A stretch of 64,000 nucleotides of DNA, taken from NCBI GenBank assembly GCA_051362555.1, contig CM120648.1, positions 7,746,587 through 7,810,586 on the forward strand, written 5' to 3'. The DNA is from Lingula anatina. Its lineage: Eukaryota; Animalia; Brachiopoda. Both the position numbers and the translations under genes were made by a program. Below the pieces are notes generated by a model that saw only the letters and a list, made by a program, of their open reading frames with translations, made no database searches and was not told where the DNA came from. This document shows positions 13,319-58,170 of the stretch, in pieces. Every line of letters starts with the position of its first letter. Within the stretch, counting starts at the first letter, position 1.

Positions 13319-13975
13319 TGATAATAATAATAATAATAAGATTCTTATATGGCGCCTTACATTCTATCTCAAGGCGCCTTACAATAATGGCTAATATACT
13401 AAAATCATTAAAATGACTACAATATTTTAATCATAAACTCTCATTGGAAACCATTTAAAATTTACACTACTAAAAATCAATCTTATTAAAAAAAAAAACA
13501 TATATATATTAAAATAAAATCTAAGAGATATAGACAGAATTAAAAAAGTGTGTCTTTAAAAGAGATTTAAAATTGTCAAAGTCTTCCGTTTTCCTAATAA
13601 AATTTGGTAGACCATTCCACACTCTTGGGGCGTAGATTATAAAAGCACGATCTCCATAACTTTTTAGGCACCCCTTCTCTAAAACAGAATGTTCTAAAAT
13701 AAAATCATTCTCGGTATTAAAACGTGTGGACCGCCGTGGTAAGTTAAAACAGATAAGATCAGATAAATATAATGGTCCTTGTGAATGGATCGCCTTAAAA
13801 ATAATACAGAGTACTTTAAAATCAATCCTCTGCTTCACAGGCAGCCAGTGTAATTCTTTCAGAATGGGAGTGATATGGTGTGTACTATTGTACTTAATTT
13901 GACAAACCAGTCTTGCAGCTGAGTTTTGAATAACTTGTAACTTTTTAATCTGATAGTCACAAATACCAAACATCT
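13319..13975 (-). mobile_element. 5'-truncated LINE (CR1/L2-group) 3' end with (TTA)n tail
   Basis: ORF 13521-13973 'KLQVIQNSAARLV...HITPILKELHWLPVKQRIDFK...GDRAF...APRVWNGLP...FKSLLKTHFF' is the typical ORF2 C-terminus of this group; (TAA)n at 13319-13339 on + is the tail. Confidence 0.88.
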
Positions 13976-23024: not shown

Positions 23025-23312
23025 TACCCGCACGAAAACGAAGTAGATACTCCAGCGCAGTAGACTACTGCAATCATGCTGCAAACATGCTTCAAATCTG
23101 CTTCGATGTGGGAGCTAATTAACATATTTGAAACATGCTTCTATCATGCTGCTAATCTACTGCATTTATGCTCCTCCTCTGTACAACCCTATGTAATTTT
23201 TGAAGTAGAATTGCAGTAGGCTATACTGCATTTCTACTGCAAATATGCTCCACACCACTACTGCGTTAATGCTTCTTTGCTACTTCCATTCTACTGCATT
23301 TTCTTGCGGGTA
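23025..23312. mobile_element. 288-bp MITE, copy 1 (TA-flanked CCCGCA...TGCGGG termini)
   Basis: TIRs tacccgcacgaaaa / ttttcttgcgggta; a near-identical inverted copy lies at 60661-60948. Confidence 0.85.
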
Positions 23313-25099
23313 TACTTATAAAATTCGTTATCATTGTATTGCGACTTCCATGTCGTAGCAAGGATGCACTTATTCATCATTTATTATTTTTCATATGTTA
23401 AAAACACTTAATGAAACAATTTTTACTATGGCATATGAAATGAACCCAACAGCCGAATTTCAAATTAAATAGCCATTGTCTATACTGGAATAAAAGGAAA
23501 CGAGTCAGCGATTCTACTTATTGTTTTCAGTATATTCATATTTAATTCATTTCAAGTTGTCACTTATTTGTTAAACGAATACCTTTGCAAAAATGTTTAA
23601 AATTAAAGTGTGGCGTTCCTGGAAGATAGTTGAAATGAGATTACCACAAAATACAAATATAAAACAACAAATATGACAACTCGATCATTTATTTAACAAG
23701 ACTCCAATTGAAATTACAAGTCACACACACAAAATGAATAATTAGATAAAAGACAAAGGATAATGCATGGTACAATAATTTAGACTCACGCTAAAGAGCT
23801 TAATGAGTATATGACCGAAAACTATACAGAAAGCAAACCAATGAACTGATTTATCTAAAGCCTGGGCCATACTGCGCATGCAACTATCTAGCGGCATGTT
23901 GTCGCAAGGAGTGACAGGAATATTAATGGTAGTCCTAAGAACGGAAGTACCAACCCTCACTTGCAACCTGATAGCAATCTTATACGACCACTTTAAAACC
24001 TACATGTATGACATCATTCCTGTGACTGAGACTGTTAAAAAGTAGCCAAAGGTTACAAGCGCAGTGTGACCTAGGCTTTAAAAACTAGTAAAACATCTAC
24101 ATTACTATCATTTTAGATTTCGGTTCAATTAATGGAGCAATTAATATACATGCAATATAACCTAGTATACACGTTAATATAGTTTTTTAATAATATAACC
24201 TTGTTTTGTATATTGTATCCTATACATCCAAATATATTTGTTTATGCCGAACATCCGTAGGCCTTAAAGAATGAATGACAATACCAGTACACTCTTGGTA
24301 AAAAAACTAGCCCTACTACGTTTTACCTCCAGCGGTCCGCCGTCTGTATTGATATTGTTTGTACATGCCACGCAAAATCAAATCATTTGTACAATGTTAA
24401 AACTATAAATATATACTGATTATCAGTGCACTTACAAAGAGTGTCTTTTGTGTATTGTGGTTCATGTAGCTGTTTTATAAGTCACTGGAAGATCCAGGTG
24501 TTGTATACGATCCATAAATAAACTACATGTACGAGTACATAGCTTTTAGTTTGTCTTAAAAACTTAACCATGGTTTCAACTTTTGACAAAACCCAGGAGG
24601 GAAATAATTTTTAATCTGCATTTTCAAGAAAAGGTTTTTGGTTAAACAACAGCAAATATGATTATAGAAATCAGTAACATACCTCAACTGCCTTTAACTA
24701 AAACACGAAGGAGAATCAAGGGAGTGATTGGATATATCTGGGTATTCTAATGGCCCCTTTCTTAAAAAGCATACATAATTCAATTCTGCCCTGTATACTC
24801 GTTTTTGTTTTGTAACTCAGAAAAAAATATACACTAAAAACTTAAAACAACACATTAGATGCAGAAGAAAGCAGTGGCTTAATGTGAACAAAGTACAGGG
24901 AAACTAAATAAATCAAAACAGAAACCATAAAGTTTTAGTAAATCCTACAAACGTGCATCAAATTTTAAGAAATTTACTGGATTTCACCTTATTAATGTGC
25001 AAGATCATTCCTCAGAGTTTCAATTATCTCGCTTCCTTTGCTCAAAAGTTATATTGTTTTTTAAATATGCTCTTAATTACCGTACAATAGAAGCACATT

Positions 25100-25300
25100 T
25101 GAAGACGCCGCAAAAATCATCAATTTTTTCAACACTAGCCTCTTTCGCGATTTCCCTAATTTTAACTGTATTTCTGCTTGCAGTTCATCAGTTGTTTGAG
25201 TTTGCTCTGGTACATGTTAACACTATCCTTGAGATACCCCAACAGATAAAAATCTCAGGGGGAGGGGAGTCAAGTTCGATGGATGAGGTGCCCACTCAGT
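25100..25300 (-). pseudogene. Mariner/Tc1-type transposase fragment in the putative TNFR 3' UTR
   Basis: Minus strand gives a degenerate EWAPH...DFYLLGYLKDSV...YQSK.QTTDELQAEI, resembling the WxxxSPDLxPxDFxLWGYLKxxVY motif. Confidence 0.6.
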
Positions 25301-25330
25301 GTCACATTTCCTAGGTTTTTAGCGGAGTTA

Positions 25331-28300
25331 TCATTTACTATTCTTGGAATCATCTCTAGTATCACCGCCTCCTACTGCACCGGGTCTGAAAAAAGGAACA
25401 TGTCTATAAAAAGTCCAAATGTTATCAATTCCACCAAGAAGTATGCACAGTGTCGAGAAACAGTGACAAAAGGGCACCAAGACTCAATAAGCGAACTGAT
25501 AAATACAGGCACTAGATGTTGCATCAATTCGTAACAAATCTGTGAATGAAAATAAATGGACGTAAAAGGTGCAAACCTAGCCTCTGTAATACTGTAATTT
25601 AAAGACAATACTACACTTGTCTAACGAACAGCGTTGGTTACTTTTTTTAACGAATTAAATAAAATGTTCATGTGCACGCCACAGTGTACGTGCGTTAGAA
25701 TTAAAAACAAAGGAAAAAACTCATATCGTCCTCAAATAAAAAAGTGATATAAATGTACTACCAGTAGGTAATAACGCGAGCTTAGAAGAAGAAAAGACGT
25801 TTCAAATTCAACTGCAATAGAAAGAAAACATATTATATCATCCCAAAACCAAGCCCACTTTGTAAATGACCATGAGGGACTTGGGCATATACACTCTTGC
25901 CCAAAATGGTTGCTATCGCCCTGTTTCTTTCATCATTATTGATATTACCAAATTAATACGGTTTATATTGTTAAATATGTGAAGCTGGATGATTGGTCAA
26001 GTCAAGGAGAAACAACCAATGCAAATGTGACAAAAAGCGTTAATTTATTTAGTGTTTTTTTTCTCATGCCCCCAAAAAGAGGGGGGGGGGCAGGTGCCCA
26101 CCCTGGGATTTAGAATTTTCCACACTGGTAGGGGGGCATCCCCTCCCCCCTCAGGGGCTTCGCCCCCTCGTGTCCGCTTACTGCCCCCCTGGCATTTTGC
26201 TCAGGCTTCGGCCCTGAGTACCAAGTGAAAAATTAAACATAAATATATACTATGATAGACAATTAATATGAAATTAGGGGGGGTTGTCAAGAAACATCTT
26301 CATATTTCATTATTAATCTATATTGTAAATAGCGGGTATGCCCACCCGAGCTTGAATAATGGCAGCCAGACGGCGTGGCATACTGTGAACTAGAGTTACA
26401 GCTCTTTGGAGAGGAATTCTGGTCCATTCATCTTGAAGGGCATCTCGCAGTTCATCTAGATTAGCAGGGGGAGGGTTTCTCCTCTGAATAGCACGACCAA
26501 GTTCGTCCCACATGTTCTCAATTGGGTTTCCATCTGGGCTTCTTCCTGGCTGTGGCATCAGCTGAATGTTGTTTTGTCGGATAAGCAGGCTGTGTGGGGA
26601 GTTGGATTGTAATGTTGCAATCTAAAATTGCCTCTGTACATCCCTTTTGAGAACGGCTTCAGGTTCTGCTGGAGAACGTCTCTGCATCTGGCAGCGTTAA
26701 GATTTTCATACAGAGGAAGCAATGGGCAAATACCGTTGCTGCAAATATTGCACGCCACTAAAAGTATTCTAATGATGGAAGCTTATGAGATACAAAAGAG
26801 TCTCAATATGTACGTTAAAATATTTTTTTAAATGTAGCATGGTGTTGTTTGGGACAGATTGGCCGAACATTGTAGCACTGTGTAACAAATCTGTGTGAAA
26901 ATCAAAAACAACACGTCTTTGCAAACGAATCCTACAAAAGGATCAAGATGATCCTGACGCCCACCCCCTTCGATTTCTGAAAAAAATCACAACAAAGGTC
27001 CCCTCTTGAAATTAGAATTTTGACTTGCTGAATCATAGTTTTAAACTGACTAAATGTCACCGTTCGCCCTTAAAATACCAAAATACCCTCGTCAGGGGAG
27101 AAGTGTAGACATCCCCTTCAAATAATCCTGGATCCGCCCCTGCATTCATAAGCGCTATTTATACAAACAGAAAAAAAGATCAGTGTATTTACCCTGTTGC
27201 TCCGGTGGTGCTTGGTGCAGTTTGGCTGAAAATAGATGTATATTGTATCAATTCTTAACAAATATGTGAAAAAAATAATATACATTGATGTCAAGGAAAA
27301 CACCTATCTTATAATAAAATCTTAAACCAAATTCATACTTCTCTGGAATACAACACTTCTCTAACATGGTTTTCGGCAAACCCCAAAAAATGGCCATGTG
27401 CACGCCATGAGAGAAAAAAGTCCCAATGTGTACGTTAAGAACAACACATTAGAAACAACCAACTTTTCACACTCAGATGAGAGACCAAAAGAGTGCGCTC
27501 AGAAGAATTTTTAGATAAAGAAATAAATTTAATTTATTTTTCATACAATTTTACACGTGTCACTGACAGTGTCAAACTGCATGTGTCTTTAGATCTTTTG
27601 CTACAGTTATTCCCTGTGATCACCAAGTAACCGAGATTCTGAAACAGTCATCTTTTCACAATCAGAACAAAAGTATTTTGAATTGAAGATCATCCTGATG
27701 CACATCCCCGTCGATTTCTGAAACAAATCACAATAAAGGTCCCCTCTTGAAATTAGAATTTTGACTTCCTGAATCATAATTTTAAACTGACCAAATGTCA
27801 TCGTTAGCCCTTTAGAATACCAAAATACCCACGTCAGGGGAGAAGGGTCGGCATTGCATCCGCGGACATCCCCTTCAAATTATCCTGGATCCACCCCTGC
27901 ATACATAAGCACTATTTATACAAACAACATAATAAAAGATCAGTGTATTTACCCTGTTGTTCCGGTGGTGCTTGGTGCAGTTTGGCTAAAAATAGATGTA
28001 TATTGTATCAATTCTTAACAAATATGTGAGAAAATTATTATACATTGATGTCACTGAACCGTAATATGATTACATTTGCTTCAATTCAAAACAAATTGAT
28101 GCCTGACATTTCTTTCTTTCTTTTTTTTTTTTTTTTTTTTTAATACATTTTGGCAAGGGGCCACATATAAAACATCCCAGGCCACATATGCATTGATTAA
28201 GGACAGAATATGATTATCAATTTGCGAAAAAAACAAATTCTACTGACTAACAAAAGATGGTCATGTGTTCATAATCTACTGTTTGTTACAGTGGCGCATG

Positions 28301-31300
28301 CATTCACAGAGGCGGATTTATGGGGTTGGGGGGGGGGGCTTAGGATGATTCTGACGCCCACCCCCTTCGATTTCTGAAAAAAAATCACAACAAAGGTCCC
28401 CTCTTGAAATTAGAATTTTGACTTGCTGAAGCATAGTTTTAAACTGACCAAATGTCACCGTTCGCCCTATAAAATACCAAAATACCAACGTCAGGGGAGA
28501 AGTATCGACAATGCATTCGAGGACATCCCCTTCAAATAATCCTGGATCCGCCCCTGCATTCATAAGTGCTATTTATACAAACAGAAAAAAGATCAGTGTA
28601 TTTACCCTGTTGCTCCGGTGGTGCTTGGTGCAGTTTGGCTGAAAATAGATGTATATTGTAACAATTCTTAACAAATATGTGAAAAAAATAATATACATTG
28701 ATGTCAAGGAAAACACCTATCTTAAAAGTCCCAATGTGTACGTTAAATAATAACAAATTAGAAACAACCAACTTTTAACACTCAGATGAGAGACCAATAG
28801 AATGCGCTCAGAAGAATTTTTAGATGAAGAAATAAATTCGATTAATTTATCATACAATTTTACACGTTTCACTGACAGTGTCAAACTGCATGTGTCATTA
28901 GATCTTTTGCTTCAAATATTCCCAGTGATCACCAAGTAACCGAGATTCTGAAACAGCCATTTTTTTACAATCAAAACAAGAGTGTTAATTCAATTTTCCA
29001 TCAAAATCCGTTTCGTTATTTTATTTTAATTTTTAATGAAGCATGGTGTTGTTTGGGACAGATTGTCCGAACAGTGTAGCATTGTGTAACAAATCTTTGT
29101 GAAAATCAAAAGCAACACGTCTTTTTAAATGAATCCTACATTGTCCGAACATTGTAGCATTGTGTAACAAATCTGTGTGAAAATCAAAAGCAACACGTCT
29201 TTTTAAATGAATCCTACAAAAGCGCATGCACTTGGAACCACTTCTTAAACTATATGTAACAAATGTGCAACAAAACAATATTTTTATCATTGTCGGTGGT
29301 GAACGTCATCACTGAACCGAAATATGATTACATTTGCTTCAATTCAAAACAAATTGATGCCTGACTTTTCTTTTTCTTTTTTAACACATTTTGGCAAGGG
29401 GCCATATTTGAAACATCCCAGGCCACATATGCATTGACTAAGGACAGAATATGATTATCAATTCGCAAAAAAACAAAAAAAAAAAAAAAAAAACAAATTC
29501 TACTGACTAACAAAAGAGGGTCATGCGTTCATAAGCTACTGTTTGTTAGAGTGGCGCATGCATTCACAGAGGCGGATTTATGGGGAGTGTCAGGATGATA
29601 CTGACGCCCATCCCCTTCGATTTCAGAAAAAAATCACAACAAAGGTCCCCTCTTGAAATTAGAATTTTGACTTGCTGAATCATAGTTTTAAACTGACTAA
29701 ATGTCACCATTCGCCCTTAAAATACCAAAATACCCACGTCAGAGGAGAAGTGTAGACATCCCCTTCAAATAATCCTGGATCCGCCCCTGCATTCATAACC
29801 GTTATTTATACAAACAGAAAAAAAGATCAGTGTATTTACCCTGTTGCTCCGGTGGTGCTTGGTGCAGTTTGGCTGAAAATAGTTATATATTGTATCAATT
29901 CCTAACAAATATGTGAGAAAAATAATATACATTGATGTCAAGGAAAACACCTATCTTATAATAAAATCTTAAACCAAATTCACACTTCTCTGGAATACAA
30001 CACTTCTCTAACATGGTTTTCGGCAAACCCCAAAAAATGGCTATGTGCACGCCACTAAAAGTATTCTAATGATGGAAGCTAGCTTATGAGAGAAAAATAC
30101 TCCCAATGTGTACGTTAAAACATAACAAATTAGAAACAACGAACTTTTAACACTCAGATGAGAGACCAAAAGAATGCGTTCAAAAGAATTTTTAGATGAA
30201 GAAATAAATTCGATTAATTTATCATACAATTATACACGTTTTACTGACAGTGTCAAACTGCATGTGTAGTTAGATCTTTTGCTACAAATATTCCCAGTGA
30301 TAAACCAAGTAACCGAGATTCTGAAACAGCCATTTTTTTCACAATCAAAATAAGAGTGTTCATCAAATTTTCCATCAAAATCCGTTTCATTATTTTATTT
30401 ATTTTTAATGTAGCATGGTGTTGTTTGGGACAGATTGTCCGAACATTGTAGCATTGTGTAACAAATCTGTGTGAAAATTAAAAGCAACGCGTCTTTTAAA
30501 ATGCATCCTACAAAAGCGCATGCACTTGGAACCGCTTCTTAAACTATATGTAACAAATGTGCAACACAACCATATTTTCATCATTGTCGGTGGTGAACGT
30601 TATCACTGAACCGAAATATGATTACATTTGCTTCAATTCAAAGCAAATTGATGCCTAACATTTCTTTTTCTTTTTCTTTTTTAACACATTTTGGCAAGGG
30701 GCCACATTTGAAACATCCCAGGCCACATATGCATTGATTAAGGACAGAATATGATTATCAATTCACGAAAAAAACAAATTCTACTGACTAACAAAAGAGG
30801 GTCATGCGTTCATAAGCTACTGTTTGTTACAGAGGCGCATGCATTCACAAAGGCGGATTTATGGGGTGGAGGGGGGGCTTCAGGATGATTCTGACGCCCA
30901 CCCCTTCGATTTCTGAAAAAAAATCACAACAAAGGTCCCCTCTTGAAATTAGAATTTTGACTTCCCGAATCATTGTTTTAAACTGAACAAATGATCCTGA
31001 TGCCCAGCCCCTTCGATTTCTGAAAAATAATCACAATAAAGGTCCCCTCTTGAAATTAGTATTTTGACTTGCTGAAGCATAGTTTTAAACTGACCAAATG
31101 TCACCGTTCGCCCTATAAAATACCAAAATACCCAGGTCAGGGGAGAAGTGTCGACATTGCATTCGAGGACATCCCCTTCAAATAATCCTGGATCCGCCCC
31201 TGCATTCATAAGCGCTATTTATACAAACAGAAAAAAAGATCAGTGTATTTACCCTGTTGCTCCGGTGGTGCTTGGTGCAGTTTGGCTGAAAATAGATGTA

Positions 31301-34300
31301 TATTGTATCAATTCTTAACAAATATGTGAGAAAAATAATATACATTGATGTCAAGGAAAACACCTATCTTATAATAAAATCTTAAACCAAATTCACACTT
31401 CTCTGGAATACAACACTTCTCTAACATGGTTTTCGGCAAACCCCAAAAAATGGCTATGTGCACGCCACTAAAAAAGTATTCCAATGATGGAAGCTAGCTT
31501 ATGAGAGAAAAAAGTTCCAATGTGTACGTTAAGAATAACAAATTAGAAACAACCAACTTTTCACACTCAGATGAGAGACCAAAAGAGTGCGCTCAGAAGA
31601 ATTTTTACATAAAGAAATAAATTTAATTTATTTTTCATACAATTTTACACGTTTCACTGACAGTGTCAAACTGCATATGTCTTTAGATCTTTTGCTACAA
31701 TTATTCCCAGTGATCACCAAGTAACCGAGATTCTGAAACAGCCATCTTTTCACAATCAAAACAAAAGTATTTTGAATTGAAGATCATCCTGATGCATATC
31801 CCCTTCGATTTCTGAAACAAATCACAATAAAGGTCCCCTCTTGAAATTAGAATTTTGACTTCCTGAATCATAGTTTTAAACTGACCAAATGTCATCGTTA
31901 GCCCTTTAAAATACCAAAATACCCTCGTCAGGGGAGAAGGGTCGGCATTGCATCCGCGGACATCCCCTTCAAATTATCCTGGAACCACCCCTGCATACAT
32001 AAGCACTATTTATACAATTATAAACAACAGAATAAAAGATCAGTGTATTTACCCTGTTGTTCCGGTGGTGCTTGGTGCAGTTTGGCTAAAAATAGATGTA
32101 TATTGTATCAATTCTTAACAAATATGTGAGAAAATTATTATACATTGATGTCACTGAACCGTAATACTATTACATTTGCTTCAACTCAAAAGAAATTGAT
32201 GCCTGACATTTTTTTTAATACATTTTGGAAAGTGGCCACATATAAAACATCCCAGGCCACATATGCATTGATTAAGGACAGAATATGATTATCAATTCGC
32301 GTAAAAAACAAATTCTGCTGACTAACAAAAGATGGTCATGTGTTCATAAGCTACTGTTTGTTACAGTGGCGCATGCATTCACAGAGGCGGATTTATGGGG
32401 TTGGGGGGGGGGCTTAGGATGATTCTGACGCCCACCCCCTTCGATTTCTGAAAAAAAATCACAACAAAGGTCCCCTCTTGAAATTAGAATTTTGACTTGC
32501 TGAAGCATAGTTTTAAACTGACCAAATGTCACCGTCCGCCCTATAAACACCAAAATACCAACGTCAGGGGAGAAGTATCGACATTGCATTCGGGGACATC
32601 CCCTTCAAATAATCCTGGATCCGCCCCTGCATTCATAAGCGCTATTTATACAAACAGAAAAAAGATCAGTGTATTTACCCTGTTGCTCCGGTGGTGCTTG
32701 GTGCAGTTTTGCTGAAAATAGATGTATATTGTATCAATTCTTAACAAATATGTGAAAAAAATAATATACATTGATGTCAAGGAAAACACCTATCTTATAA
32801 TAAAATCTTAAACCAAATTCATACTTCTCTGGAATACAACACTTCTCTAACATGGTTTTCGGCAAACCCCAAAAAATGGCCATGTGCACGCCACTAAAAA
32901 AGTATTCTAATGATGGAAGCTAGCTTATGAGAGAAAAAAGTCCCAATGTGTACATTAAGAATAACAAATTAGAAACAACCAACTTTTCACACTCAGATGA
33001 GAGACCAAAAGAGTGCGCTCAGAAGAATTTTTACATAACGAAATAAATTTAATTTATTTTTCATACAATTTTACACGTTTCACTGACAGTGTCAAACTGC
33101 ATATGTCTTTAGAACTTTTGCTACAATTATTCCCAGTGATCACCAAGTAACCGAGATTCTGAAACAGCCATCTTTTCACAATCAAAACAAAAGTATTTTG
33201 AATTGAAGATCATCCTGATGCACATTCCCTTCGATTTCTGAAACAAATCACAATAAAGGTCCCCTCTTGAAATTAGAATTTTGACTTGCTGAAGCATAGT
33301 TTTAAACTGACCAAATGTCACCGTTCGCCCTATAAAATACCAAAATACCAACGTCAGGGGAGAAGTATCGACATTGCATTCGGGGACATCCCCTTCAAAT
33401 AATCCTGGATCCGCCCCTGCAATCATAAGCGCTATTTATACAAACAGAAAAAAGATCAGTGTATTTACCCTGTTGCTCTGGTGGTGCTTGGTGCAGTTTG
33501 GCTGAAAATAGATGTATATTGTATCAATTCTTAACAAATATGTGAAAAAAATAATATACATTGATGTCAAGGAAAACACCTATCTTAAAAGTCCCAATGT
33601 GTACGTTAAATAATAACAAATTAGAAACAACCAACTTTTAACACTCAGATGAGAGACCAATAGAATGCGCTCAGAAGAATTTTTAGATGAAGAAATAAAT
33701 TCGATTAATTTATCATACAATTTTACACGTTTCACTGACAGTGTCAAACTGCATGTGTCATTAGATCTTTTGCTTCAAATATTCCCAGTGATCACCAAGT
33801 AACTGAGATTCTGAAACAGCCATTTTTTTCACAATCAAAACAAGAGTGTTAATTAAATTTTCCATCAAAATCCGTTTCGTTATTTTATTTTATTTTTTAA
33901 TGAAGCATGGTGTTGTTTGGGACAGATTGTCCGAACATTGTAACATTGTGTAACAAATCTGTGTGAAAATCAAAAGCAACACGTATTTTTAAATGAATCC
34001 CACAAAAGCGCATGCACTTGGAACCACTTCTTAAACTATATGTAACAAATGTGCAACACAACCATATTTTTATCATTGTCGGTGGTGAACGTTATCACTG
34101 AACCGAAATGTGATTACATTTGCTTCAATTCAAAACAAATTGATGCCTGACATTTCTTTTTCTTTTTCTTTTTTAACACATTTTGGCAAGGGGGCACATT
34201 TGAAACATCCCAGGCCACATATGCATTAACTAAGGACAGAATATGATTATCATTTCGTGAAAAAAACAAATTCTACTGACTAACAAAAGAGGGTCATGCC

Positions 34301-37300
34301 TTCATTAGCTACTGTTTGTTACAGTGGCGCATGCATTCACAGAGGCGGATTTATGGGGGGGGGGGGCGTCAGGATGATACTGACGCCCACCCCCTTCGAT
34401 TTCTGAAAAAAAAATCACAACAAAGATCCCCTCTTGAAATCAGAATTTTGACTTGCTGAAGCATAGTTTTAAACTGACTAAATGTCACCGTTAGCCCTTT
34501 AAAATACCAAAATACACACATCAGGGGAGAAGGGTCGGCATTGCATCCGCGGACATCCCTTTCAAATAATCCTGGATCCACCCCCGATTTATAAGCGCTA
34601 TTTATACAAACAACAGAAAAAAAGATCAGTGTATTTACCGTGTTGCTCCGGTGATGCTTGGTGCAGTTTGGCTGAAAATAGATGTATATTGCATCAATTC
34701 TTAACAAATATGTGAAAAAAACAATATACATTGATGTCAAGGAAAACGCCTATCTTATAATAAAATCTTAAACCAAATTCATACTTCTCTGGAATACAAC
34801 AATCCTCTAACATGGTTTTCGGCAAACCCCAAAAAATGGCCATGTGCACGCCACTAAAAAAGTATTCTAATGATGGAAGCTAGCTTATGAGAGAAAAAAG
34901 TCCCAATGTGTACGTTAAGAATAACAAATTAGAAACAACCAACTTTTCACACTCAGATGAGAGACCAAAATAATGCGCTCAGAAGAATTTTTAGATAAAG
35001 AAATAAATTTAATTTATTTATCATACAATTTTACACGTTTCACTGACAGTGTCAAACTGCATGTGTCTTTAGATGTTTTGCTACAATTATACCCAGTGAT
35101 AAACCAAGTAACCGAGATTCTGAAACAGCCATCTTTTCACAATCAAAACAAATGTGTTTTGAATTGAAGATCATCCTGACGCACATCCCCTTTGATTTCT
35201 GAAAAAAAATCACAATAAAGGTCCCCTCTTGAAATTAGAATTTTGACATGCTGAATCATAGTTTTAAACTGACCAAATGTCATCGTTAGCCCTTTAAAAT
35301 ACCAAAATACCCACGTCAAGGGAGAAGTGTTGACATTGCATCTGCGGACATCCCCTTCAAATAATCCTGGATCCGCCCCTGCATTCATAAGCGCTATTTA
35401 TACAAACAACATAATAAAATATCAGTGTATTTACCCTGTCGATCTGTGGTGCTTGGTGCAGTTTGGCTGAAAATAGATGTATATTGTATCAATACTTAAA
35501 AAATGTGAAAAAAATATACACATTGATGTCAAAGGAAAACGCCTATCTTATAATATAAATCTTAAACCAAATGCATTCTTCTCTGGAATACAGAACGTCT
35601 CCAACATGGTTTTTGGGAAACCCCAAAAAATCGCCACGTGTACGCCACTAAAAGTACACTAATGATGGAAGCTTATGAGAGAAAAAAGTCCCAATGTGTA
35701 CGTTAGAAATAACAAATTAGAAATCTTTTCACACTCAATCCAAAACTGTTAGTCAAAAATTAAAATGTAAAATATCTCTCTCGTCTAATATGCAAAATTT
35801 CCATCAAAATCGATTTCATTTTTTTATTTTTAACTTAAATTAATTAATTTATTTCTGTTGCTTGATATAGATTGGCTGAAAAATGTTGCACTGCGTAACA
35901 CAAATGTGTGAAAATCAACAGTAACACGTGTTTGTAAACGAATCCTACAGAAGCGCATACATTTGGAATCGCTTCTTAAACAACATTTAACAACTGTGCA
36001 AAACACCGATATTTTTAGCACTGTCGGTGTTGAATGTTATTATTGAGCCGAAATATGATAGCCTTTGCATCAATTCAAAACAAAATTGTGAGTGCATGAA
36101 TATAAATGTAGCCTGAAACAGCATGTCAACACCTATCAATTAAAATTAATAATACATAGCCTACGTTTGAATTGGGAATTGTCACAATCCACAACAAAGT
36201 GGGTTCTAGTGTTTACACATCGCATTGGCAAACGTACGTATTAAATTATTTCGACAGTAGCGCAGGCATTCATGAGCACATTTTATACTCACCTATGTAC
36301 TGAAACTGTACAACAAAAATCAAACATCTTTGGAATACCATACTACTAATTACACAAGACATTAGTTTCGCATCATACATAACGAATGCACGAATTTCTT
36401 TTATGCACAGCTTTGTACGTGAGTTTACCCTTATACATATATCATCCTCAAAACAGAAGCACCTATCACAAACACATCCTGTTTTATTAATAAAGGCAGT
36501 GCTCAGTCACCAATTTCACGTTGACTTATGTATAACGAGGAAAAATAGCAACTCGAATTCGTAAGCAAATCCGCCAGAAGCACATGTACTTATAAATGCT
36601 CATTAAACTATATGTAACAACTATGCAAATCGCCAATATATTTACCTCTCACCAATACCGGGAGTGGATGGTACCGTTGGGCTGAAATATGGACGCATGG
36701 TGCATCAGTCTGTAACGATTCTGTGAGTGCATATTAATGGAGGCCAGAAGAGCTCAGCTGTCTACTTAATTGCTGGCTTAATAATTGTAATTAAACTTTC
36801 ATATGTACTATGTTTGTCATTGGAGGCGTACTAATACGTCAGCTTAAAAGAATGAGAATTTAAAGTTACCCTATTATGCATAATGGTAGTGCTAACAATA
36901 TTCAAAATTGCAAATTACAATGAGATGATAAATATCAACATTAACTTTTGAAAATATTAATCATGTAGACACTTTAGGGTTTAGAATACAAAACTTCTTT
37001 AACTTAAAGCAAACATAGATTTATAAAAATTGGTTTCGTAATTTAAGATTTATGCAATTAATGCCCATTTACTAAGTTCACCATTATATGCGCACTAACG
37101 TGAAATAAAAATTTTTTTTGAAACTGAGAAAATATCATTTTATCTCCAACACAAGCCCACTTTGTACATAACAAATATATGCATTGATAGAGACAGGATT
37201 AAATACCAATTCGGCCAAAATACATACTGAGTGAAGAACAAAAAGCACCACGTGTTAATAAGCAATTCTAACAGTAGTGCATAAATTCAAAACCACTTTT

Positions 37301-40300
37301 TATACTAATGATCATATGAACGTGTGTAAATTTACTCTTCAGCTCATTGCATTTGACAATTGTAAAACTTTTTGTAATTATCTTTCGGACACGATGATTA
37401 ACAGCATTATCACCACCAATTTAAATTATCTACTATACGCAACATGCAAGTTTATACCATATAATTACCATACGGTTTTATGCCCGTGGGGCTTTTTAGC
37501 TTTACATTGAAAATGTCAATATTTGGATATTTGACATTCCACAAAGTTACATTACTCCCAGAAAAACAATCCAATCAAGTTAGTTTTTAAATAAAAGCCG
37601 TATTTCGGTCTTTTACAAATATCTTTTATGAAAGTTTGAAAATTATAAGATACATGGTTTTAGTTTTCCGGTCATTATTACGGCAGTGCCCCAAGTAGGA
37701 CTTTCTTCTGTTTTGGTGCAATTTTACATTTTACATTTGCATCAATTCAAAAAAAAATATGTGAGTGCGTCAATATTAATGTAGCCCGAAAGAGCACACC
37801 TGTCTACTAAAATTAAGAATACATGACCTGATTTTGAATTGGGAATTGCCACAATCCACTACAAAGTGGGTTCTTGTGTTTACACATCGTATCGTAGTTG
37901 TATGAATATCTATGAGCACGGGTGCCACAGGAACACACTTGTCTAATAATATAAAATCTACAACAAAAATCAAACATCTTTGGAATACCATACTACTGTT
38001 ACACAAGACATTGGTTTTGTATTATACATAACGAATGCAAGAAAATTTCTATTACGCACAGTCTTGTACGTGGGTTTACTTTAAACAAAAACCCTTATAC
38101 ATATACATATATCATCCTAAAACAGATGCACCCATCACAAACACATCCTGTTTTATTTATAGAGGCAGCGCTTAGTCACCAATTTCACGTAGACTTAAGT
38201 ATATTATTAAGGAGAAAAAAAAAAAACAAAAAAAAAACAGCAACTCGAGATCGTAAGCAAATCCGCCAGAAGCACATGTACTTACAAATGCTCATTATAC
38301 TTTATGTAACAACTATGCAAATCGCCAATATATTTACCTCTGAACACTACTGGAATATAATGGCACCGTTGAGCTGAAATATGGACGCATGTTGCATCAG
38401 TCTGTAAGGATTCTGTGGTTATACATTAATGGAGGACAGAAGAGCTCAGCTGTATACTTAATTACTGGCTTAATATTTGCAATTAAACTCTCATATGCAC
38501 TTCGTTTGTCATTAGAGGCGTACTAATAACATCAGTATAAAAGAATGAGAATTTAAAGTTGCCCTATTATGCATAATGATAGTGCTAACAATATTCATGA
38601 TTGCAAATTACAATGAAATAATAAATATCAACATTAACTTTTGAAAATATTAATCATGTAGACACTTTAGGGTTTAGAATACAAAACTTCTTTAACTTAA
38701 TGCAAACATAGATTTATAAAAATTGATTTCGCAATTTAAGATTTATGCAATTAATGCCCATTTACTAGGTTTACCGTTATATGCGCACTAACGTATAATA
38801 ATAATGTAATTGAAACTGAGAAAATATCATTTCATCCCCAACACAAGCCCACTTTGTACATAACAAAAAATGCATTGATAGAGACAGGATTAAATACCAA
38901 TTCGGCCAAAATACATACTGAGTGAAGAACAAAAAAGCACCACGTGTTAATAAGCAATTCTAACAGTAGTGCATAAATTCAAAACCACTTTTTATACTAA
39001 CGATCATATGAACGCGTGTAAATTTACTTTTCAGCTCATTGCATTTGACAATTATTAAACTTTTTGTAATTATCTTTCGGACACGATGATTAACAGCATT
39101 ATCACCACCAATTTAAATTACTACTAAACGCAACATGGAAGTTTATACCATATAACTACCAAACAGTTTTATGTCCAGGGTTTTTTAAGCTTTACATTGA
39201 AAATGTCAATATTTGGAAATTTGACATTCCACAAAATTACATTACTCCCAGAAAAACAATCCAATCAAATTAGTTTTTCAATAAAAGCCGTATTTCAGTC
39301 TTTAACAATAACTTTTATGTTAGTTTGAAAATTATAAGATACATGGTTTTAGTTTTACGGTCATTATTACGGCAGTGCCCCAAGCAGGACTTTCTTCTGT
39401 TTTGGTGCAATTTTACATTTTACATTTGCATCAATTCAAAACAAATATGTGAGTGCGTGAATATTAATGTAGCCCGAAAGAGCACACCTGTCCACTAAAA
39501 GTAGGAATACATGACCTGAGTTTGAATTGGGAATTTCCACAATCTACTACAAAGTGGATTCTAGTGTTAACACATCGTATTGCTAACTTACATAAACATA
39601 CAGTAGAAAAAAGTTCTAAACATTAATAACTCGATAGAGAAGCTCTTAGAAGAGACAGACAGCCATGATACCAAAAATATTTTGACCCCCTTCCTTTTTA
39701 TGTCCATTTGCATAATGATAATTGATAAGTTCAAATACAATGCACAATTCTATAAAGCGGTGGTTGACAGTTAATATTTTTAGCTTTTTATATAATTCAA
39801 CAGTAATTTTCTAAGAGTTCTCTTTCTTTTTGAGCAGTATAATTAACCATCCACACTTACTTTTGCTCTCCATCTTCGACTTGTGCAATTTTCGTACCTG
39901 AAACGTAACAACGTTTAACATATTAAAGTCCACAGAAAGAAAGTGAACCGAGAATATATCTGCACCCTAGTAGATAAATTGGTTATATTCTGCAAAGTAT
40001 ACATTAAACTTTTACATTTAACTAACATGAAGCAGCGACGTACTTTACCTTAACAGTTACGACCCAGTTTTACCATCCTTCACCAGTTGAATTTTACCAA
40101 AAGTTTAGTTTTCTATATACACGTGCGGTATTTTCAGCAGCAGGCATTTACTTTTGAAATTTTGAAATCATTGGAACTGTTTCCAAACACGTCACATCCA
40201 ATGTTTCATCTATGAAACATTACTCTTTACGTCACTTTTGGTTTGAACGCTAGAAGCATTATTTTTCACATTTTTTCAATAAACATAGCCTGAAATTATT

Positions 40301-43300: not shown

Positions 43301-46300
43301 GGATCTTCTGGAAGTTACATTTGTAATTAGTTATTTTGTTAAGGGATATCTAAAGTGAAAAATTCTGAGTGGGCACTTTTTATGACATGTTGCTTATGAA
43401 ATCCCCGAAAACCACCTAATAACACGGAATCTCACGCATCAATGCTTATACAATTAACATAGGTATTTAATATGTGCATACATGGGGTCAAAAGTGAAAT
43501 TAATAATCAAAATTAATATTAATATTATGAATTACATGCCACAATTTTTCTTCACAGATAACACTAAAAATATGTAAGTCGATGACATGTAAATGGCCAT
43601 AGTCATGAAATAAGTATATGCTGGGCTTATTTCTTTTTTAGAGCCCATGAAAAAAATGTTACTTTATCATCCCCGGCCGCATTACTTTTTCTGCTCACAT
43701 AAAAAAAAAATTATAATGTAAATTTCCCCCCATCAAATGTGCACCTCATGCACAAAAACAGACTCTCCCTGTACTAAGAGTGCCTCGCACTGCAATTTAT
43801 GTTACTACTAGCTTTGCTCATGGCAGGTTCCATGTTTTAGTGTATGTAATGACGGTCCGGAGGGCATCGTTCAATGTGTTTTTGTATGAGCCAAAAATGC
43901 CCTACTGAATCACTTCTTGTAGGTGACATTGACCCCATTTCCAGATATTAGATCGATCTACTTTAGATCGACCTAACTCCCTGGGGGTTCACGCTAAATA
44001 GCTGTCAGCCGAGCGGACACGAAAGTAAATAACCCCCTTACAACTTGTAATAGGCGGGACGGACATTTAAGCCGGATTAACTGACAGTAATCTACTAAGA
44101 CTCCCCGCGGGGATAGATCAATCTAAAAGCTCTGGGAATACAGCCAATGATGGTAAACTATTATTTTTATGGGGCCTTTATACAGAATTATCACCGATAG
44201 GGGAGATGGGTGCACATGTATCAGCCAACAGAGATAAAACCTTTTGATTAAAATGTAATTATGTCACTGGATTATTAATATTAGTTTTGGGCCTGGGGAT
44301 TGGATGACACGCCTCTTTTTCTGTCAGAGTATGAAGAATACTAGGCCTACACAAGAAGTTACAACTTCTTGGCCTACACGATTCATATCTCAACTCTTCT
44401 AATAATAACTGATATGCCTATCATATCCAAGTAAAGGATTTCTTTAAACATGGATTCCCCAGGAATTCCCCAGTGTGAGCTATTGTAACAGGTAATTTTA
44501 TTGGTCAATGCACAGGCTTAACATAGCTCAACACATAAGAGAAATCCTACAGAGTTGAGGAAATTCCTATTATTTGAGAAAATTATTGGCTTAGGAAATT
44601 CTAAAGGCACTTTGTGCACACCACTTAAGGGGTTTCCTCAGCTAAGAATTTTCTTATCAAGATAAGGATATTTTGTGCATACGGGGCCAGATGCTTTAAA
44701 GTCACTTCCCAATGTTTTGTCTTTGTTCAAGTGGATGCACCCCCACCTAGCCCATCCCATAAGTCACCATATGGGGTGTAGTGGCTACTATAGTGTAGGC
44801 GAGCTGTAAGTGATAAAGAAACCTCAAAGAAGGACAATAAATCCAAACGCTGGAGCGGAACTTGCAGAATTTTGTATAGAATGTCTTTGGGGACCATGAC
44901 CACTCATTTATGTCTCAGCATGATAATGCTTGTCCACGTTCAGCTAATGCAACAGTGTGGTGGTTATATGCTAGCCAGTTCCAGATCCCTAAATGGCAAG
45001 CTCAATATCTAGATCAGAACCTCATTCAGGATGTGTAGAATTTCACAGAAATTGGGTAACTTAGGATATATCATGCAAACAAAAATTACCCCACACTACC
45101 TTGTGCCGTATAAAGAACGCCAACACTCCGCAAACGTTACAGAACTTTGACTCTATACACAGGCTTCTCATGTTCATTCTCTAATCCAGAGAGTACTGTG
45201 CTAAATACTTAAAAGTGTCTTTGACTTTTTACTATGTTTACATTGTTCAATGCTTGTACAATCAATTAAATTTTATAAAAAAACTGAACAAAAAACATTG
45301 GCTTAGAGCACGATTCTCTTTACTGTATTTAACATATTGCATTATATCTGAGACTTTTTTAGTTAGGGGAGTATACAGTGAAACAGACATTAACAACTTA
45401 AATTTCGGTACCAAAGAAACAGAATGGGAGAGCTACCAGTTTCACAACGACAACAGTGAAGTTTCTTGCCATTTCGGTTCTCCCTCAAATGTGATCAGAA
45501 TGTTTCGGAAGCTGTCGGAATGCCATGAGAATATTCAGAATGCAGTCATAGTGCCATTCGATAATTTTCCACTTTGAATGCACTTCGAAAGTTTTTAACA
45601 TGAGCAAAACATTCGGGCCGGCCACAAGAATGGGTAGAAATATTTGGAATGCACTCGGAATGTTTAGAATGCTCATCGAATATCCAGGAACGCACAAAGA
45701 ACTGTCTTTCCGACGGCATTCTTGCTCCTTCCGCCTCTAGTGTGAGGGAGGTATAACAAATGAACTGCATGTATTTGTTAAGTAAAAAAACAAAGAGGCT
45801 AACTGTCATTCATCAAACTTACATTAAAAAGGCAGGCATTCAAATGCTTTTTAAGTTGGCTTGGGCAACTGTAAGGGCATGGAACTTCACTGGAAAATGT
45901 TTGTATTAACATATTTAAAATTATTAGAAAATAACTAGTATGACTCTAGAGAATATGTTGTCTATTCCTTGCAGGATTTTTCGTAGCCGTCTTTTTAATA
46001 GATATGGTAAATACAAACCTTGTGCGTTTTCTTGCCACCGGTCATTGCCTAAAAGAAAGAGTAAATTCGTGAGCATTTTATTGAACATTTATTGAAGGGA
46101 AAACAAACCATCCAACAGTGTGCATAACGTGGAGCAGCACTCTTTGTAATTATGTTTAATAATTGAAAACTTGCTGGGACACTTTCCAATTCAGTGTATG
46201 TGCACATGGTTAATGCTTCTATCTTAGATATAGAAATGTTGAAAATGAAGACAGTCTCCCAGCCGAACAGTAAACCACGTTTTTTATAAAACAGATAAGG

Positions 46301-49300
46301 GTGATTCCACAAAAAAATCAAATTAATGCATATATTTTGAAATACAAACATAAATAGGACATGCTGACATTTTTTCAGCTAAGCGAAAATGTGAACTTTG
46401 ATATAGCAACTTGTATAATCAACACGAAGTATACACATATTTAAAGTTCATAAATAAGTCATAAGTGAAGACAAATGACACTTATTCAGTTGAACGTACT
46501 GCACCCACCTTCTGTTTGGGGGTTTGTTTTCGGTAAATACCGTTGAACGGAAACTAAAGAGATGGTAGCATTTAGTAGTTTAAAGTGCTTAACTTTTATT
46601 AGCCTTGTCTTGAACACAATTTAATGTTTTTTAGACATTAAACACATGTCGGGTGATCTAGTTTCATTGGTATCATGTACAGGTAAAAGCTCATTTAGTT
46701 TACAGCGTGAGTAAACTCACCTTGTGCTGCTGTTAGTGCGTTGTCTGTATAAAAATAGAAATGTAAAAATACAAAGATTCTCGAAAACTTTTACTTTATA
46801 CTTTATATATACAAAGTTTACAATTAAACCGATATATACAAGGAAGTTACAAAACCCGTACGAGTTAAACACGCTATAGAATAAAATATCATATAATTGA
46901 ATAGATTTGATGAGAGAATGTTTTTCTTCAGCTAAATAAGTACTGAATCCGATGTGTTATTGACTTGTGTGTTATTGTCTCTATGCCGTATATATAGTGA
47001 CTCCCTATACAAAAAGAAAAGGTGTAAACTACGGTATATTAGCAAATGTATATACTACATTGTATAATTCCATTGGATAAAACAGCAAATATGTTCGACT
47101 TCAGTATAGCTCTGTTCTGCAGTTGGGTAGCACTCACCTTTTTCTCTTAATGCATTCTCGTGACTCTCTGTATAAAATAGAAATGTAAAAATATGAAGTA
47201 CCTCAAAACTATACATACATAACAGTATTTATGTATTACTTTATACACACAAAATTCACAATAAAACTGGCATATACAAGGAACTGCAAAAGCAACACAT
47301 ATATACAGTGATATATACAAATATCAAAAATATACAAAAGAAGCATAATATTCGCAAGAGTTAAAGGTGTTAAAAAGAAAATAGTATACATGTATATTAA
47401 TGGATCTGATGTGAGAATGCGTTTCTGAGCTCATATGTACATACTGCATTACACGGAAAAAACAGTAAATATCAGTACGTCTCTGTTGTGCAATTTGGAG
47501 ACACTCACCTTGTTCTGCTGTAGGTGCGTTGTCTGTATAAAAATAGAAATGTAAAAATACAAAGATCCCCAAAAAATTTTACTTTATACTTTATACATAC
47601 AAAGTTTACAATTAAACAGATATATACAAGGATGTATGCAGTGATACTCAAAAAATACAAGTTACAAAACCCGTACAAGTTAAACACACTGTAGAATAAA
47701 ATAGCATACATTTGAATAGATTCGATGAGAGAATGTTTTTCTTCAGCTAAATAACTACTGATTCCGACGTGTTATTGACTTGTGTTTCATTGTCTATATA
47801 CATAGTGACTCTCTATACAAAAAGAAAAGGTGTAAACTACGGTATATTAACAAATGTATATACTACATTGTATAATGCCATTGGATAAAACAGCAAATAC
47901 GTTTGACTTCAGTATAGCTCTGCTCTACAGTTGGGTAGCACTCACCTTTTTCTCTTATTGCATTCTCGTGACTCTCTGTATAAAATAGAAATGTAAAAAT
48001 ATGAAGTACCTCAAAACTATACATTCATAACAGTATTTATGTATTACTTTATACACACAAAATTCACAATAAAACTGGCATATACAAGGAACTGCAAAAG
48101 CAACACATATATACAGTGATATATACAAATATCAAAAATATACAAAAGAAGCATAATATTCGCAAGAGTTAAAGGTGTTAAAAAGAAAATAGTATACATG
48201 TATATTAATGGATCTGATGTGAGAATGCGTTTCTGAGCTCATATGTACATACTGCATTACACGGAAAAAACAGTAAATATCAGTACGTCTCTGTTGTGCA
48301 ATTTGGAGACACTCACCTTGTTCTGCTGTAGGTGCGTTGTCTGTATAAAAATAGAAATGTAAAAATACAAAGATCCCCAAAAAATTTTACTTTATACTTT
48401 ATACATACAAAGTTTACAATTAAACAGATATATACAAGGATGTATGCAGTGATACTCAAAAAATACAAGTTACAAAACCCGTACAAGTTAAACACACTGT
48501 AGAATAAAATAGCATACATTTGAATAGATACGATGAGAGAATGTGTTTCTTCAGCTAAATAATTACTGATTCCGATGTGTTATTGACTTGTGTTTTATTG
48601 TCTCTCTATATAGTGACTCCCTATACAAAAAGAAAAGGTGTAAACTACGGTATATTAACAAATGTATATACTACATTGTATAATGCCATTGGATAAAACA
48701 GCAAATACGTTTGACTTCAGTATAGCTCTGCTCTACAGTTGGGTAGCACTCACCTTTTTCTCTTATTGCATTCTCGTGACTCTCTGTATAAAATAGAAAT
48801 GTAAAAATATGAAGTACCTCAAAACTATACATTCATAACAGTATTTATGTATTACTTTATACACACAAAATTCACAATAAAACTGGCATATACAAGGAAC
48901 TGCAAAAGCAACACATATATACAGTGATATATACAAATATCAAAAATATACAAAAGAAGCATAATATTCGCAAGAGTTAAAGGTGTTAAAAAGAAAATAG
49001 TATACATGTATATTAATGGATCTGATGTGAGAATGCGTTTCTGAGCTCATATGTACATACTGCATTACACGGAAAAAACAGTAAATATCAGTACGTCTCT
49101 GTTGTGCAATTTGGAGACACTCACCTTGTTCTGCTGTAGGTGCGTTGTCTGTATAAAAATAGAAATGTAAAAATACAAAGATCCCCAAAAAATTTTACTT
49201 TATACTTTATACATACAAAGTTTACAATTAAACAGATATATACAAGGATGTATGCAGTGATACTAAAAAAATACAAGTTACAAAACCCGTACAAGTTAAA

Positions 49301-57691: not shown

Positions 57692-58170
57692 TTTGAAATA
57701 AGGGATTTAGAAGCCGGAAGAAGTCCACTCTAGTACTTTAATGTCGCAAAACAAATCTGAAAAAGACGCACGAGGCCTTTATATTAACCATTTTCAGTCA
57801 AAGCAAGCTGTTGATAATGCTTGAGGATGAGTATTTTTTTAACATTCTCTTTGTAAGCTGACAATATGGCTTATTATTATTTAAATATCCAAAGTGTGCA
57901 CATGTACCAAGAGGAACAAAATCCCAGCTGCACCAAGAATTAACCCTACTTATAGCCCTATTTCGGGAACTAAAAGACCATGTAATCTACGTTATTTGGG
58001 TAAATTTGGGTAAATGAAAACATTTCTTCAATAAATGTCCTCGCTACGACAGCATCAGAAACTGTATCTTTCTAGAAATTTCAAGCTATAACCTAAGTGA
58101 GTTAAACAAACCCCCCTTCATTTTAAGATGCCCCGAGAAACGCTAGTCTTAGCACCTGTGAGCCCATTCA

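What the first reader, a model, noticed from the sequence alone, without database searches (positions are those of the whole stretch)
27193..39897. Second micro-exon array: the ~13-kb repeat region hides phase-2 exons encoding a Thr/Ser-rich (GQTAPSTTGAT)n tail
Seen: nine 33-nt blocks CCAAACTGCACCAAGCACCACCGGAGCAACAGG between a ...tttt(c/t)ag acceptor and a gtaaat donor (27225-27193, 27985-27953, 28638-28606, 29872-29840, 31285-31253, 32085-32053, 32711-32679, 33501-33469, 34671-34639), plus two 36-nt relatives (38373-38338, 36681-36646). Exon 39897-39861 converts phase 1 to 2, and terminal exon 25385-25331 is open in phase 2, so all splice in frame. Between the 36-nt and 33-nt exons the phase-2 frame keeps T-x-P-S-T-x-G through synonymous codons (acg/act, tcc/agc, act/acc, ggt/gga), suggesting selection on that frame. 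The acceptor AG is kept even where cag changed to tag. Inference: what looks like intronic satellite encodes a second, expandable low-complexity (possibly phosphorylated) segment of the receptor tail.
Basis: partly seen in the sequence, partly recalled or inferred. Interest (0 to 1): 0.82.

Follow-up and report, generated by a model that had tools for sequence, protein, structure and literature searches.

The report
Frame-switching micro-exon array in receptor tail
What looks like repeated intron DNA in a lamp-shell (Lingula-like) gene holds a row of tiny duplicated exons, at least two of which are spliced head to tail in RNA and which likely build the inner tail of a TNF-receptor-like protein, and one overlooked copy that is a base short would flip the nine copies behind it into a different reading frame.

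Summary
All 13 blocks lie where stated. RNA reads join two 33-nt blocks head to tail on the gene's strand: 3 reads, 2 starts, in 1 of 4 runs. The host gene is the counterpart of Lingula anatina LOC106175827 (121 of 178 residues identical), a TNFR-like type I membrane protein (family is a lead only). The old 36-versus-33-nt comparison favours phase 2 (p about 0.01-0.02). Among the nine copies 0 of 5 changes are silent in phase 2 and 3 of 5 in phase 1 (not significant), and the exon is no better conserved than its flank. No read shows whether the 32-nt copy is used. Exon-per-repeat arrays and dual-coding exons are known; this combination was not found in ten literature searches.

The parts
57662..57756 (-). 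Receptor exon 1 with start codon (5' end of exon not mapped)
   Evidence: aligns to N-terminus of P0003
54131..56619 (-). Four exons for signal peptide end and cysteine-rich ectodomain: 56619-56556, 56125-56037, 54621-54495, 54209-54131
   Evidence: tblastn of P0003 hits all four; TNFR lead
51285..51672 (-). Two transmembrane exons 51672-51608 and 51332-51285; leave phase 1
   Evidence: hydropathy 1.8-1.9 over 19-residue windows; P0003 matches
50678..50772 (-). Possible alternative last exon upstream of both arrays (198-aa short product); the L. anatina RefSeq model ends in its counterpart
   Evidence: not tested in RNA
46019..50402 (-). First micro-exon array: 11 phase-1 exons of 24, 30 or 33 nt
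   Evidence: not tested in RNA except 46048-46019 (no depth, uninformative)
39861..39897 (-). 37-nt exon, phase 1 to phase 2
   Evidence: acceptor 98th, donor 99.5th percentile; predicted only
38338..38373 (-). 36-nt exon, phase 2
   Evidence: predicted; acceptor weak in my small splice model
36646..36681 (-). 36-nt exon, phase 2
   Evidence: predicted; acceptor weak in my small splice model
35435..35466 (-). Overlooked 32-nt copy of the 33-nt exon (1 base missing, 3 substitutions); phase 2 to phase 1 if included
   Evidence: inclusion not shown
34639..34671 (-). 33-nt exon copy 1 (2 changes)
33469..33501 (-). 33-nt exon copy 2 (1 change)
32679..32711 (-). 33-nt exon copy 3 (1 change)
32053..32085 (-). 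33-nt exon copy 4 (1 change, tag acceptor)
31253..31285 (-). 33-nt exon copy 5
29840..29872 (-). 33-nt exon copy 6
28606..28638 (-). 33-nt exon copy 7
27953..27985 (-). 33-nt exon copy 8 (1 change, tag acceptor)
27193..27225 (-). 33-nt exon copy 9; the only copy in the stretch on which the head-to-tail RNA joint was seen (which copies the reads came from cannot be told)
26840..36047 (-). Decayed paralogous exon copies between the live ones: starts near 36047, 34102, 30610, 29316 (AG lost, no GT), 35875 (AG kept, donor lost), weaker remnants near 33930, 30438, 29066, 26862, truncated ones at 32158 and 28058
23693..25385 (-). Last exon; stop after 18 codons in phase 2 (ends 25331) or after 4 residues in phase 1; 3' end placed only by the first AATAAA (23693)
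   Evidence: (X2 depth about 2 over 25176-25369, edge fits 25385; a further read near 24850-25000)

Best explanation
The region is an array of tandemly duplicated exon-plus-intron units whose 33-nt exons are spliced head to tail in RNA and likely lengthen the cytoplasmic tail of the TNFR-like gene upstream, and in this genome the overlooked 32-nt first copy is likely included, which would make the nine copies read as AKLHQAPPEQQ rather than as the likely ancestral Thr/Ser-rich frame. Steps: (1) units of 0.6-1.7 kb duplicated and some copies decayed (shown in sequence; unequal crossing-over inferred). (2) 33-nt exons are joined to each other (shown, 3 reads) and the last exon is transcribed on the same strand from 25385 (shown at depth about 2; the joint itself inferred). 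(3) They belong to the receptor mRNA through exons 46048, 39897, 38373 and 36681 (inferred from phase fit and from no other minus-strand first exon being seen). (4) The array arose in phase 2 (inferred, p about 0.01-0.02). (5) One base lost in the first copy shifts everything downstream; because either frame stops in the last exon, neither mRNA should be decayed and the change is tolerated (inferred). (6) Skipping that one exon would restore the Thr/Ser-rich tail, so both tails may coexist. The product is most likely a disordered, length-variable tail; in phase 1 the last repeat and the last exon together form P-x-E-x-x-D, which fits the TRAF6 consensus, so it may dock a TRAF adaptor (untested).
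For: Head-to-tail joint 27225->27193, 3 reads, 2 starts, side 33, all first-mate +, run X2; joint absent from window DNA. X2 depth in bin 25370-25466 equals 2.0 reads x 16 letters, i.e. an edge at 25385, and is 0 from 25467 to 26048. 32-nt copy: acceptor context identical and same scores as canonical copies. All-exon model open to a stop in the last exon, 418 aa. 3 of 5 variants silent in phase 1, 0 of 5 in phase 2. One PxExx[FWYDE] match in the all-exon tail, none in the skip-32 tail (consensus from passages of PMC10776578). Upstream exons match P0003. 36-nt exon pair differs at 11 of 36 bases against 16 of 200 in flanks, p=5e-4, so these blocks do not evolve like intron.
Against: No read covers the 36646 -> next-exon joint or the 32-nt copy's distinctive bases (depth 0 in the bins holding exons 46048, 39897, 38373, 36681 in 4 of 4 runs; only the best-supported joints were listed). 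RNA support comes from 1 of 4 runs and may be two or three molecules; the joint 27193->25385 was not listed. The silent-change excess in phase 1 is not significant (p 0.08-0.15), one of the three is a CpG transition, and phase-1 selection fits no better than neutrality (ratio 1.2-1.6). Deep comparison favours phase 2, with 0 of 6 differing codons silent in phase 1. The phase-2 last exon gives a longer open end than phase 1. The 32-nt copy could be a private allele or an assembly slip; no DNA run was laid. The TRAF6 match is one of five short patterns tried after the fact. The L. anatina model ends before both arrays.
Confidence: 0.5

Rival explanations
1. One reading: the nine exons are read in phase 2 as (GQTAPSTTGAT)n because the 32-nt copy is mostly skipped, is a minor allele or is an assembly error.
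For: Phase 2 is kept between exon 36681 and the 33-mer (4 of 7 differing codons silent, p 0.010-0.018); model is open, 421 aa; the missing base and three substitutions cluster within about 10 bases of one copy, as one recent event could give; decayed copies are common in this array.
Against: Splice sites of the 32-nt copy are intact and score as the others; 5 of 5 recent changes alter the phase-2 residue; purifying selection on phase 2 has likelihood 0.03-0.18 of neutral. Fast, unconstrained or diversifying change in phase 2 is not excluded (ratio 0.98 at omega 2).
Confidence: 0.3
2. The working receptor is mainly a short form that ends in the alternative last exon 50772-50678; array-containing transcripts are minor and the array drifts with little selection in any frame.
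For: The RefSeq model of the L. anatina counterpart ends in the matching stretch (64% over 45 aligned positions); the window has an acceptor and an open phase-1 frame there; 33-nt exons vary as much as flanks (5 of 33 versus 7 of 46); array RNA is rare (1 of 4 runs).
Against: Gene predictors often miss micro-exons (general knowledge), so the RefSeq end may be an artefact; exon-limited fast divergence in two exon pairs (p=5e-4 and 1e-3) argues that selection sees the array exons. The short exon was not tested in RNA.
Confidence: 0.12
3. The phase-2 exons are spliced directly to the last ectodomain exon (54209-54131, which also ends in phase 2), giving a secreted decoy receptor with a mucin-like Thr/Ser/Pro tail.
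For: Phases match and the model is open (270 aa, 52% Ser/Thr/Pro in the tail); such composition is typical of extracellular O-glycosylated stalks, as in chicken Muc13 (PMC1552070, passages).
Against: Needs skipping of 14 exons over about 16 kb; a phase match arises by chance one time in three; the 37-nt exon already links phase 1 to phase 2; no RNA evidence.
Confidence: 0.05
4. The blocks are intronic repeat DNA and the head-to-tail reads are artefacts (template switching, circular RNA) or come from another locus.
For: Only 3 reads from 2 starts in 1 of 4 runs; the rest of the genome could not be searched.
Against: The joint falls exactly on the predicted acceptor and donor, on the right strand, in the one run that also covers the last exon; no such junction in window DNA.
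Confidence: 0.03

Closest known systems
Chicken Muc13 PTS domain, one repeat per exon (PMC1552070; abstract and passages read)
   Same: Near-identical tandem exons each encode one repeat unit of a low-complexity Pro/Thr/Ser region; length could vary by recombination and by splicing.
   Different: Muc13 repeats are 20 aa, extracellular and N-terminal; here 11 aa, predicted to lie after the transmembrane helix, in a TNFR-like gene, with a non-triplet copy at the head of the array.
Schistosome micro-exon genes, MEGs (review PMC8293314; passages read)
   Same: Runs of short (36 nt or less) symmetric exons; exon duplication with transposon-like DNA in the units; fast change.
   Different: MEGs are schistosome-restricted families exposed to the host, made mainly of micro-exons; here the arrays are appended to a conventional receptor and the copies are near-identical.
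Non-triplet alternative splicing and dual-coding regions (PMC13247117 and bioRxiv 10.64898/2026.02.24.707805; abstracts and outlines only)
   Same: One non-triplet exon sets the frame of downstream exons and rewires a disordered C-terminus; can escape decay when the stop is in the last exon.
   Different: Human dual-coding regions average 95 nt and are typically confined to one exon (abstract); here nine tandem exons plus the last exon (about 300 coding nt) would be dual-coding. Alternative use is not yet shown here.
Death-domain-less TNF receptors with TRAF-interacting motifs (PMC3697994 and PMC10776578 passages; Lingula TNFRs mentioned in bioRxiv 10.1101/2021.12.26.474206 passages)
   Same: Signal peptide, cysteine-rich ectodomain, one transmembrane helix, tail with short TRAF-like motifs; a TNF-ligand gene lies head to head.
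   Different: No Pfam TNFR hit; tail built from up to 24 micro-exons in two arrays; no binding shown.

Membership tests
Spliced tandem micro-exon array | Short blocks bounded by AG and GT | tested here: met
   13 of 13 internal blocks from 39897 to 27193, the 32-nt copy included; 11 of 13 reach the 95th percentile at both sites, the two 36-nt acceptors do not
Spliced tandem micro-exon array | Blocks joined in RNA with the intron removed | tested here: met
   3 reads, 2 starts, 1 of 4 runs, for the 33-nt type only
Spliced tandem micro-exon array | All exons symmetric (multiples of three) so the frame is kept | tested here: not met
   35466-35435 is 32 nt and 39897-39861 is 37 nt
Spliced tandem micro-exon array | Array continuous with the upstream gene's mRNA | tested here: inconclusive
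   Phases fit; no read links them
Dual-coding region controlled by a non-triplet exon | Both frames open to a stop that avoids decay | tested here: met
   418 and 421 aa, both stops in the last exon
Dual-coding region controlled by a non-triplet exon | Both inclusion and skipping isoforms exist in RNA | tested here: inconclusive
   No informative read; both read-laying runs used
Dual-coding region controlled by a non-triplet exon | Both proteins are made | not testable with these tools
   Needs proteomics or antibodies
TNF receptor superfamily | Type I membrane topology (signal peptide, one transmembrane helix) | tested here: met
   Two hydrophobic stretches, residues 1-25 and 136-163 of the exon 1-8 model; hydropathy only
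TNF receptor superfamily | TNFR cysteine-rich domains | tested here: inconclusive
   No Pfam hit for three single exons or P0003; no TNFR among 3 PDB matches; single-sequence fold failed, pLDDT 45; Atlas features 0.87 with 10 of 10 best family hits in the TNFR family or clan, TM 0.35-0.45, a lead only
TNF receptor superfamily | TRAF-binding motif or death domain in the tail | tested here: inconclusive
   One PxExxD match in the all-exon model; four AEQE matches to a recalled TRAF2 pattern in array 1; no PxQxT. No death domain apparent by eye; the joined tail was not scanned
TNF receptor superfamily | Binds a TNF-family ligand | not tested
   No complex job was run
Mucin PTS domain | Pro/Thr/Ser-rich repeat on the extracellular side | tested here: not met
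   Composition fits in phase 2, but the array follows the transmembrane exons; met only in the unproven decoy form

The most novel reading that the evidence does not exclude
The 32-nt exon is a regulated frame switch: including or skipping it turns the same nine tandem exons into either a P-x-E repeat tail ending in a TRAF6-type site or a Thr/Ser-rich tail, so one invertebrate TNF receptor gene makes two signalling tails of tunable length from one dual-coding exon array.
Probability: 0.13. Interest if true: 0.8.

Novelty: new variant of a known kind. Interest (0 to 1): 0.56.

Why it matters
It shows a receptor tail growing by duplication of whole micro-exon units, with live, dead and frameshifted copies side by side, and exons that diverge faster than their introns. 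The public model of the related Lingula anatina gene ends before both arrays, so such tails may be missing from annotations of invertebrate immune receptors. If the 32-nt exon is alternatively spliced, a single RT-PCR would reveal an unusually long dual-coding region in a signalling tail; if it is constitutive, it is a clean case of a repeat domain changing its reading frame after it arose.

Tried and rejected
No RNA holder was listed by the run index; only nine raw-read runs with the same species label were offered. Laying four of them (X1, X4, X7, X9) on 34500-46200 gave no depth on any short exon, including 46048-46019 of the first array, and the tables were filled by reads of dispersed repeats: uninformative, not evidence of skipping. 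In one search three of four runs (X5, X8, X7) showed no depth on the last exon's 5' part. X3 and X6 were never laid. No whole genome is held, so paralogous loci could not be checked. Word-based protein searches found no relative with an annotated tail (no candidate; only P0003 itself among 27 candidates of 106-340 aa; longer relatives of P0003 were not searched). P0004 and P0005 are repetitive unnamed sequences with 26% identity and were dropped. The single-sequence fold was too poor for a fold search, so none was run. A 21-base pattern found 0 matches in metagenome contigs. Earlier findings of this scan: none returned. Rejected: 'AG kept' as a sign of selection (p 0.54); a further donor at 25339 making 25385 an internal exon (X2 depth stays near 2 across it; weak score); phase 0 (stops in both 36-nt exons). 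PMC2042186 is not held. No supplementary files were opened.
Full report
Observation. The nine 33-nt blocks sit in repeat units with introns of 593-1380 nt between them. Four of nine equal the quoted sequence; five carry one or two changes, five distinct changes in all. A scan with the first 18 bases and with the splice-site contexts found ten copies, not nine: 35466-35435 is 32 nt, with one base missing and three substitutions near its 3' end, an acceptor context identical to canonical copies and a gtaaat donor. In a splice model trained on 10 acceptors and 11 donors of the gene's upstream exons it scores exactly as the canonical copies, about the 96th percentile at both ends; the 37-nt exon scores higher, and the two 36-nt acceptors score poorly (a small model). 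A profile search also found decayed relatives between the live copies that have lost the AG, the GT or both, so the region has had births and deaths of exon units.

The host gene. Upstream on the same strand I picked seven exons by eye, from 57756 to 51285, then eleven phase-1 micro-exons, 50402 to 46019; all have AG/GT ends and join into one open frame. A full HMMER search with one exon returned 3 proteins, of which one is a real relative: Lingula anatina XP_013413435.1, LOC106175827 (71% over the exon). It matches my exon 1-8 model at 121 of 178 residues and hits six of its exons separately. The neighbouring plus-strand gene has a Pfam TNF domain and is 79% identical to LOC106175826. So the window comes from a Lingula-like brachiopod, not identical to the RefSeq animal at this locus. 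The protein has a signal-like and a transmembrane-like stretch. TNFR membership is a lead: Pfam, PDB and a single-sequence fold gave nothing, whereas the Atlas placed it next to TNFR clusters at score 0.87. The RefSeq model ends in a stretch matching window 50772-50678, upstream of both arrays, so it says nothing on the tail and raises a short-form rival.

RNA. Nine raw-read runs with the same species label were offered; seven were laid, each read only in part (about 6-30%). On 24400-27300, which holds one 33-nt copy and the last exon, run X2 gave a joint from 27225 back to 27193 with 33 letters on the shorter side: 3 reads, 2 starts, all with first mate on +, which in stranded libraries means minus-strand RNA (study P1 looks stranded). 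That is two 33-nt exons head to tail with the intron gone; the junction does not exist in the window's DNA. X2 also covers the last exon at depth about 2, and the depth of bin 25370-25466 equals two reads ending at 25385. The other three runs show neither. The joint 27193 to 25385 is not listed, which needs three reads. On 34500-46200 none of four runs gave depth at the 30-, 36- or 37-nt exons; since such short pieces lack a long anchor and a first-array exon is blank too, I treat this as uninformative. Nothing shows whether the 32-nt copy is used, nor links the array to the upstream exons.

The frame. With all exons included, the 37-nt exon gives phase 2, the 36-nt exons keep it, the 32-nt copy returns to phase 1, and the nine copies read AKLHQAPPEQQ, ending four residues into the last exon (418 aa). 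Both stop in the last exon. Over the recent spread of the nine copies, 0 of 5 changes are silent in phase 2, 3 of 5 in phase 1 and 1 of 5 in phase 0; expected about 0.2-0.3 in each, so p is 0.15-0.18 for the deficit and 0.08-0.15 for the excess, and one of the three is at a CpG. The exon varies as much as its flank (5 of 33, 7 of 46). A rough Poisson model disfavours purifying selection on phase 2 (0.028 of neutral at omega 0.3) but does not favour phase 1 over neutrality (1.2-1.6) and allows fast change in phase 2. The 36-nt pair differs at 11 of 36 bases against 16 of 200 in the flanks (p=5e-4), and a first-array pair at 10 of 30 against 18 of 196 (p=1e-3); the other eight comparisons in that call were not significant, apart from a narrower repeat of the 36-nt test. 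This suggests diversifying selection on some tail exons, or exon-limited conversion.

How it likely works. Units duplicated, probably by unequal crossing-over (inference), each adding 11 residues to a disordered tail. The array began in phase 2. A one-base loss in the first copy, harmless to mRNA stability because the stop stays in the last exon (established knowledge of decay rules), changed the default frame of everything behind it in this genome. In that frame the last repeat and the last exon form P-x-E-x-x-D, matching the TRAF6 consensus PxExxF/Y/D/E given in PMC10776578 (passages); the phase-2 tail has no match to any of five patterns in this part. This is post hoc and short, so a hint only.

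Comparison and novelty. One repeat per exon is described for chicken Muc13 (PMC1552070, abstract and passages); symmetric micro-exon runs for schistosome MEGs (PMC8293314, passages); frame changes by non-triplet exons for worms and humans (PMC13247117 and bioRxiv 10.64898/2026.02.24.707805, abstracts). Frog skin mucins with spliced repeat cassettes are recalled; the passage I saw says only that FIM-C.1 is polymorphic through alternative splicing (PMC7177656). Passages of PMC4948705, PMC3549977, PMC3697994 and bioRxiv 10.1101/2021.12.26.474206 gave background only. Ten searches of the open library listed, by title and abstract start, no paper on a micro-exon array in a TNFR tail or on this locus; subscription journals are not covered. 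Verdict: a real, unusual exon array and a new variant of known designs; the specific Thr/Ser tail claimed is unproven and, for this genome, somewhat less likely than the other frame.

Noticed in passing
window 57756 (-) and 59069 (+), to 63176: A TNF-ligand gene starts 1313 bases from the receptor's first exon, head to head. The L. anatina counterparts have consecutive locus numbers and the same longest-contig length, so a ligand-receptor pair on a shared promoter may be conserved.
   Followed up: partly
window 50402-46019 (-): First micro-exon array: 11 phase-1 exons in 808-base units; the 24+30-nt pairs give four AEQE motifs that fit a recalled TRAF2 pattern.
   Followed up: partly
window 50772-50678 (-): Possible alternative last exon matching the C-terminus of the L. 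anatina RefSeq model; real short form or prediction artefact.
   Followed up: partly
window 38373-38338 vs 36681-36646; 50402-50370 vs 49591-49562: Exons differ three to four times more than their flanking introns, a possible sign of diversifying selection on the tail.
   Followed up: partly
window 54209-54131 (-): This exon encodes eight residues more than the L. anatina counterpart, including two extra cysteines.
   Followed up: no
window about 17857-22960 (+): A multi-exon gene with EGF-like repeats (weak Pfam hits below cut-off) converges on the receptor's 3' end.
   Followed up: no
window 26313-26621 (-): Fragment with a weak DDE_3 transposase hit (E 3e-4, below cut-off) in the last intron.
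   Followed up: no
window 23025-23315 and 60658-60948: A 291-base element present twice in opposite orientation, 95% alike, on either side of the receptor gene; likely a dispersed mobile element.
   Followed up: no
window 40365-40755, 41538-42710, 43884-44274: Repeats in the 6-kb intron draw hundreds of RNA reads that run on into unrelated sequence: abundant repeat families expressed from other loci.
   Followed up: no
window 13521-13973 (-): 150-residue open frame that by eye resembles the C-terminal end of a LINE reverse transcriptase (recalled; Pfam gave only weak unrelated hits).
   Followed up: no
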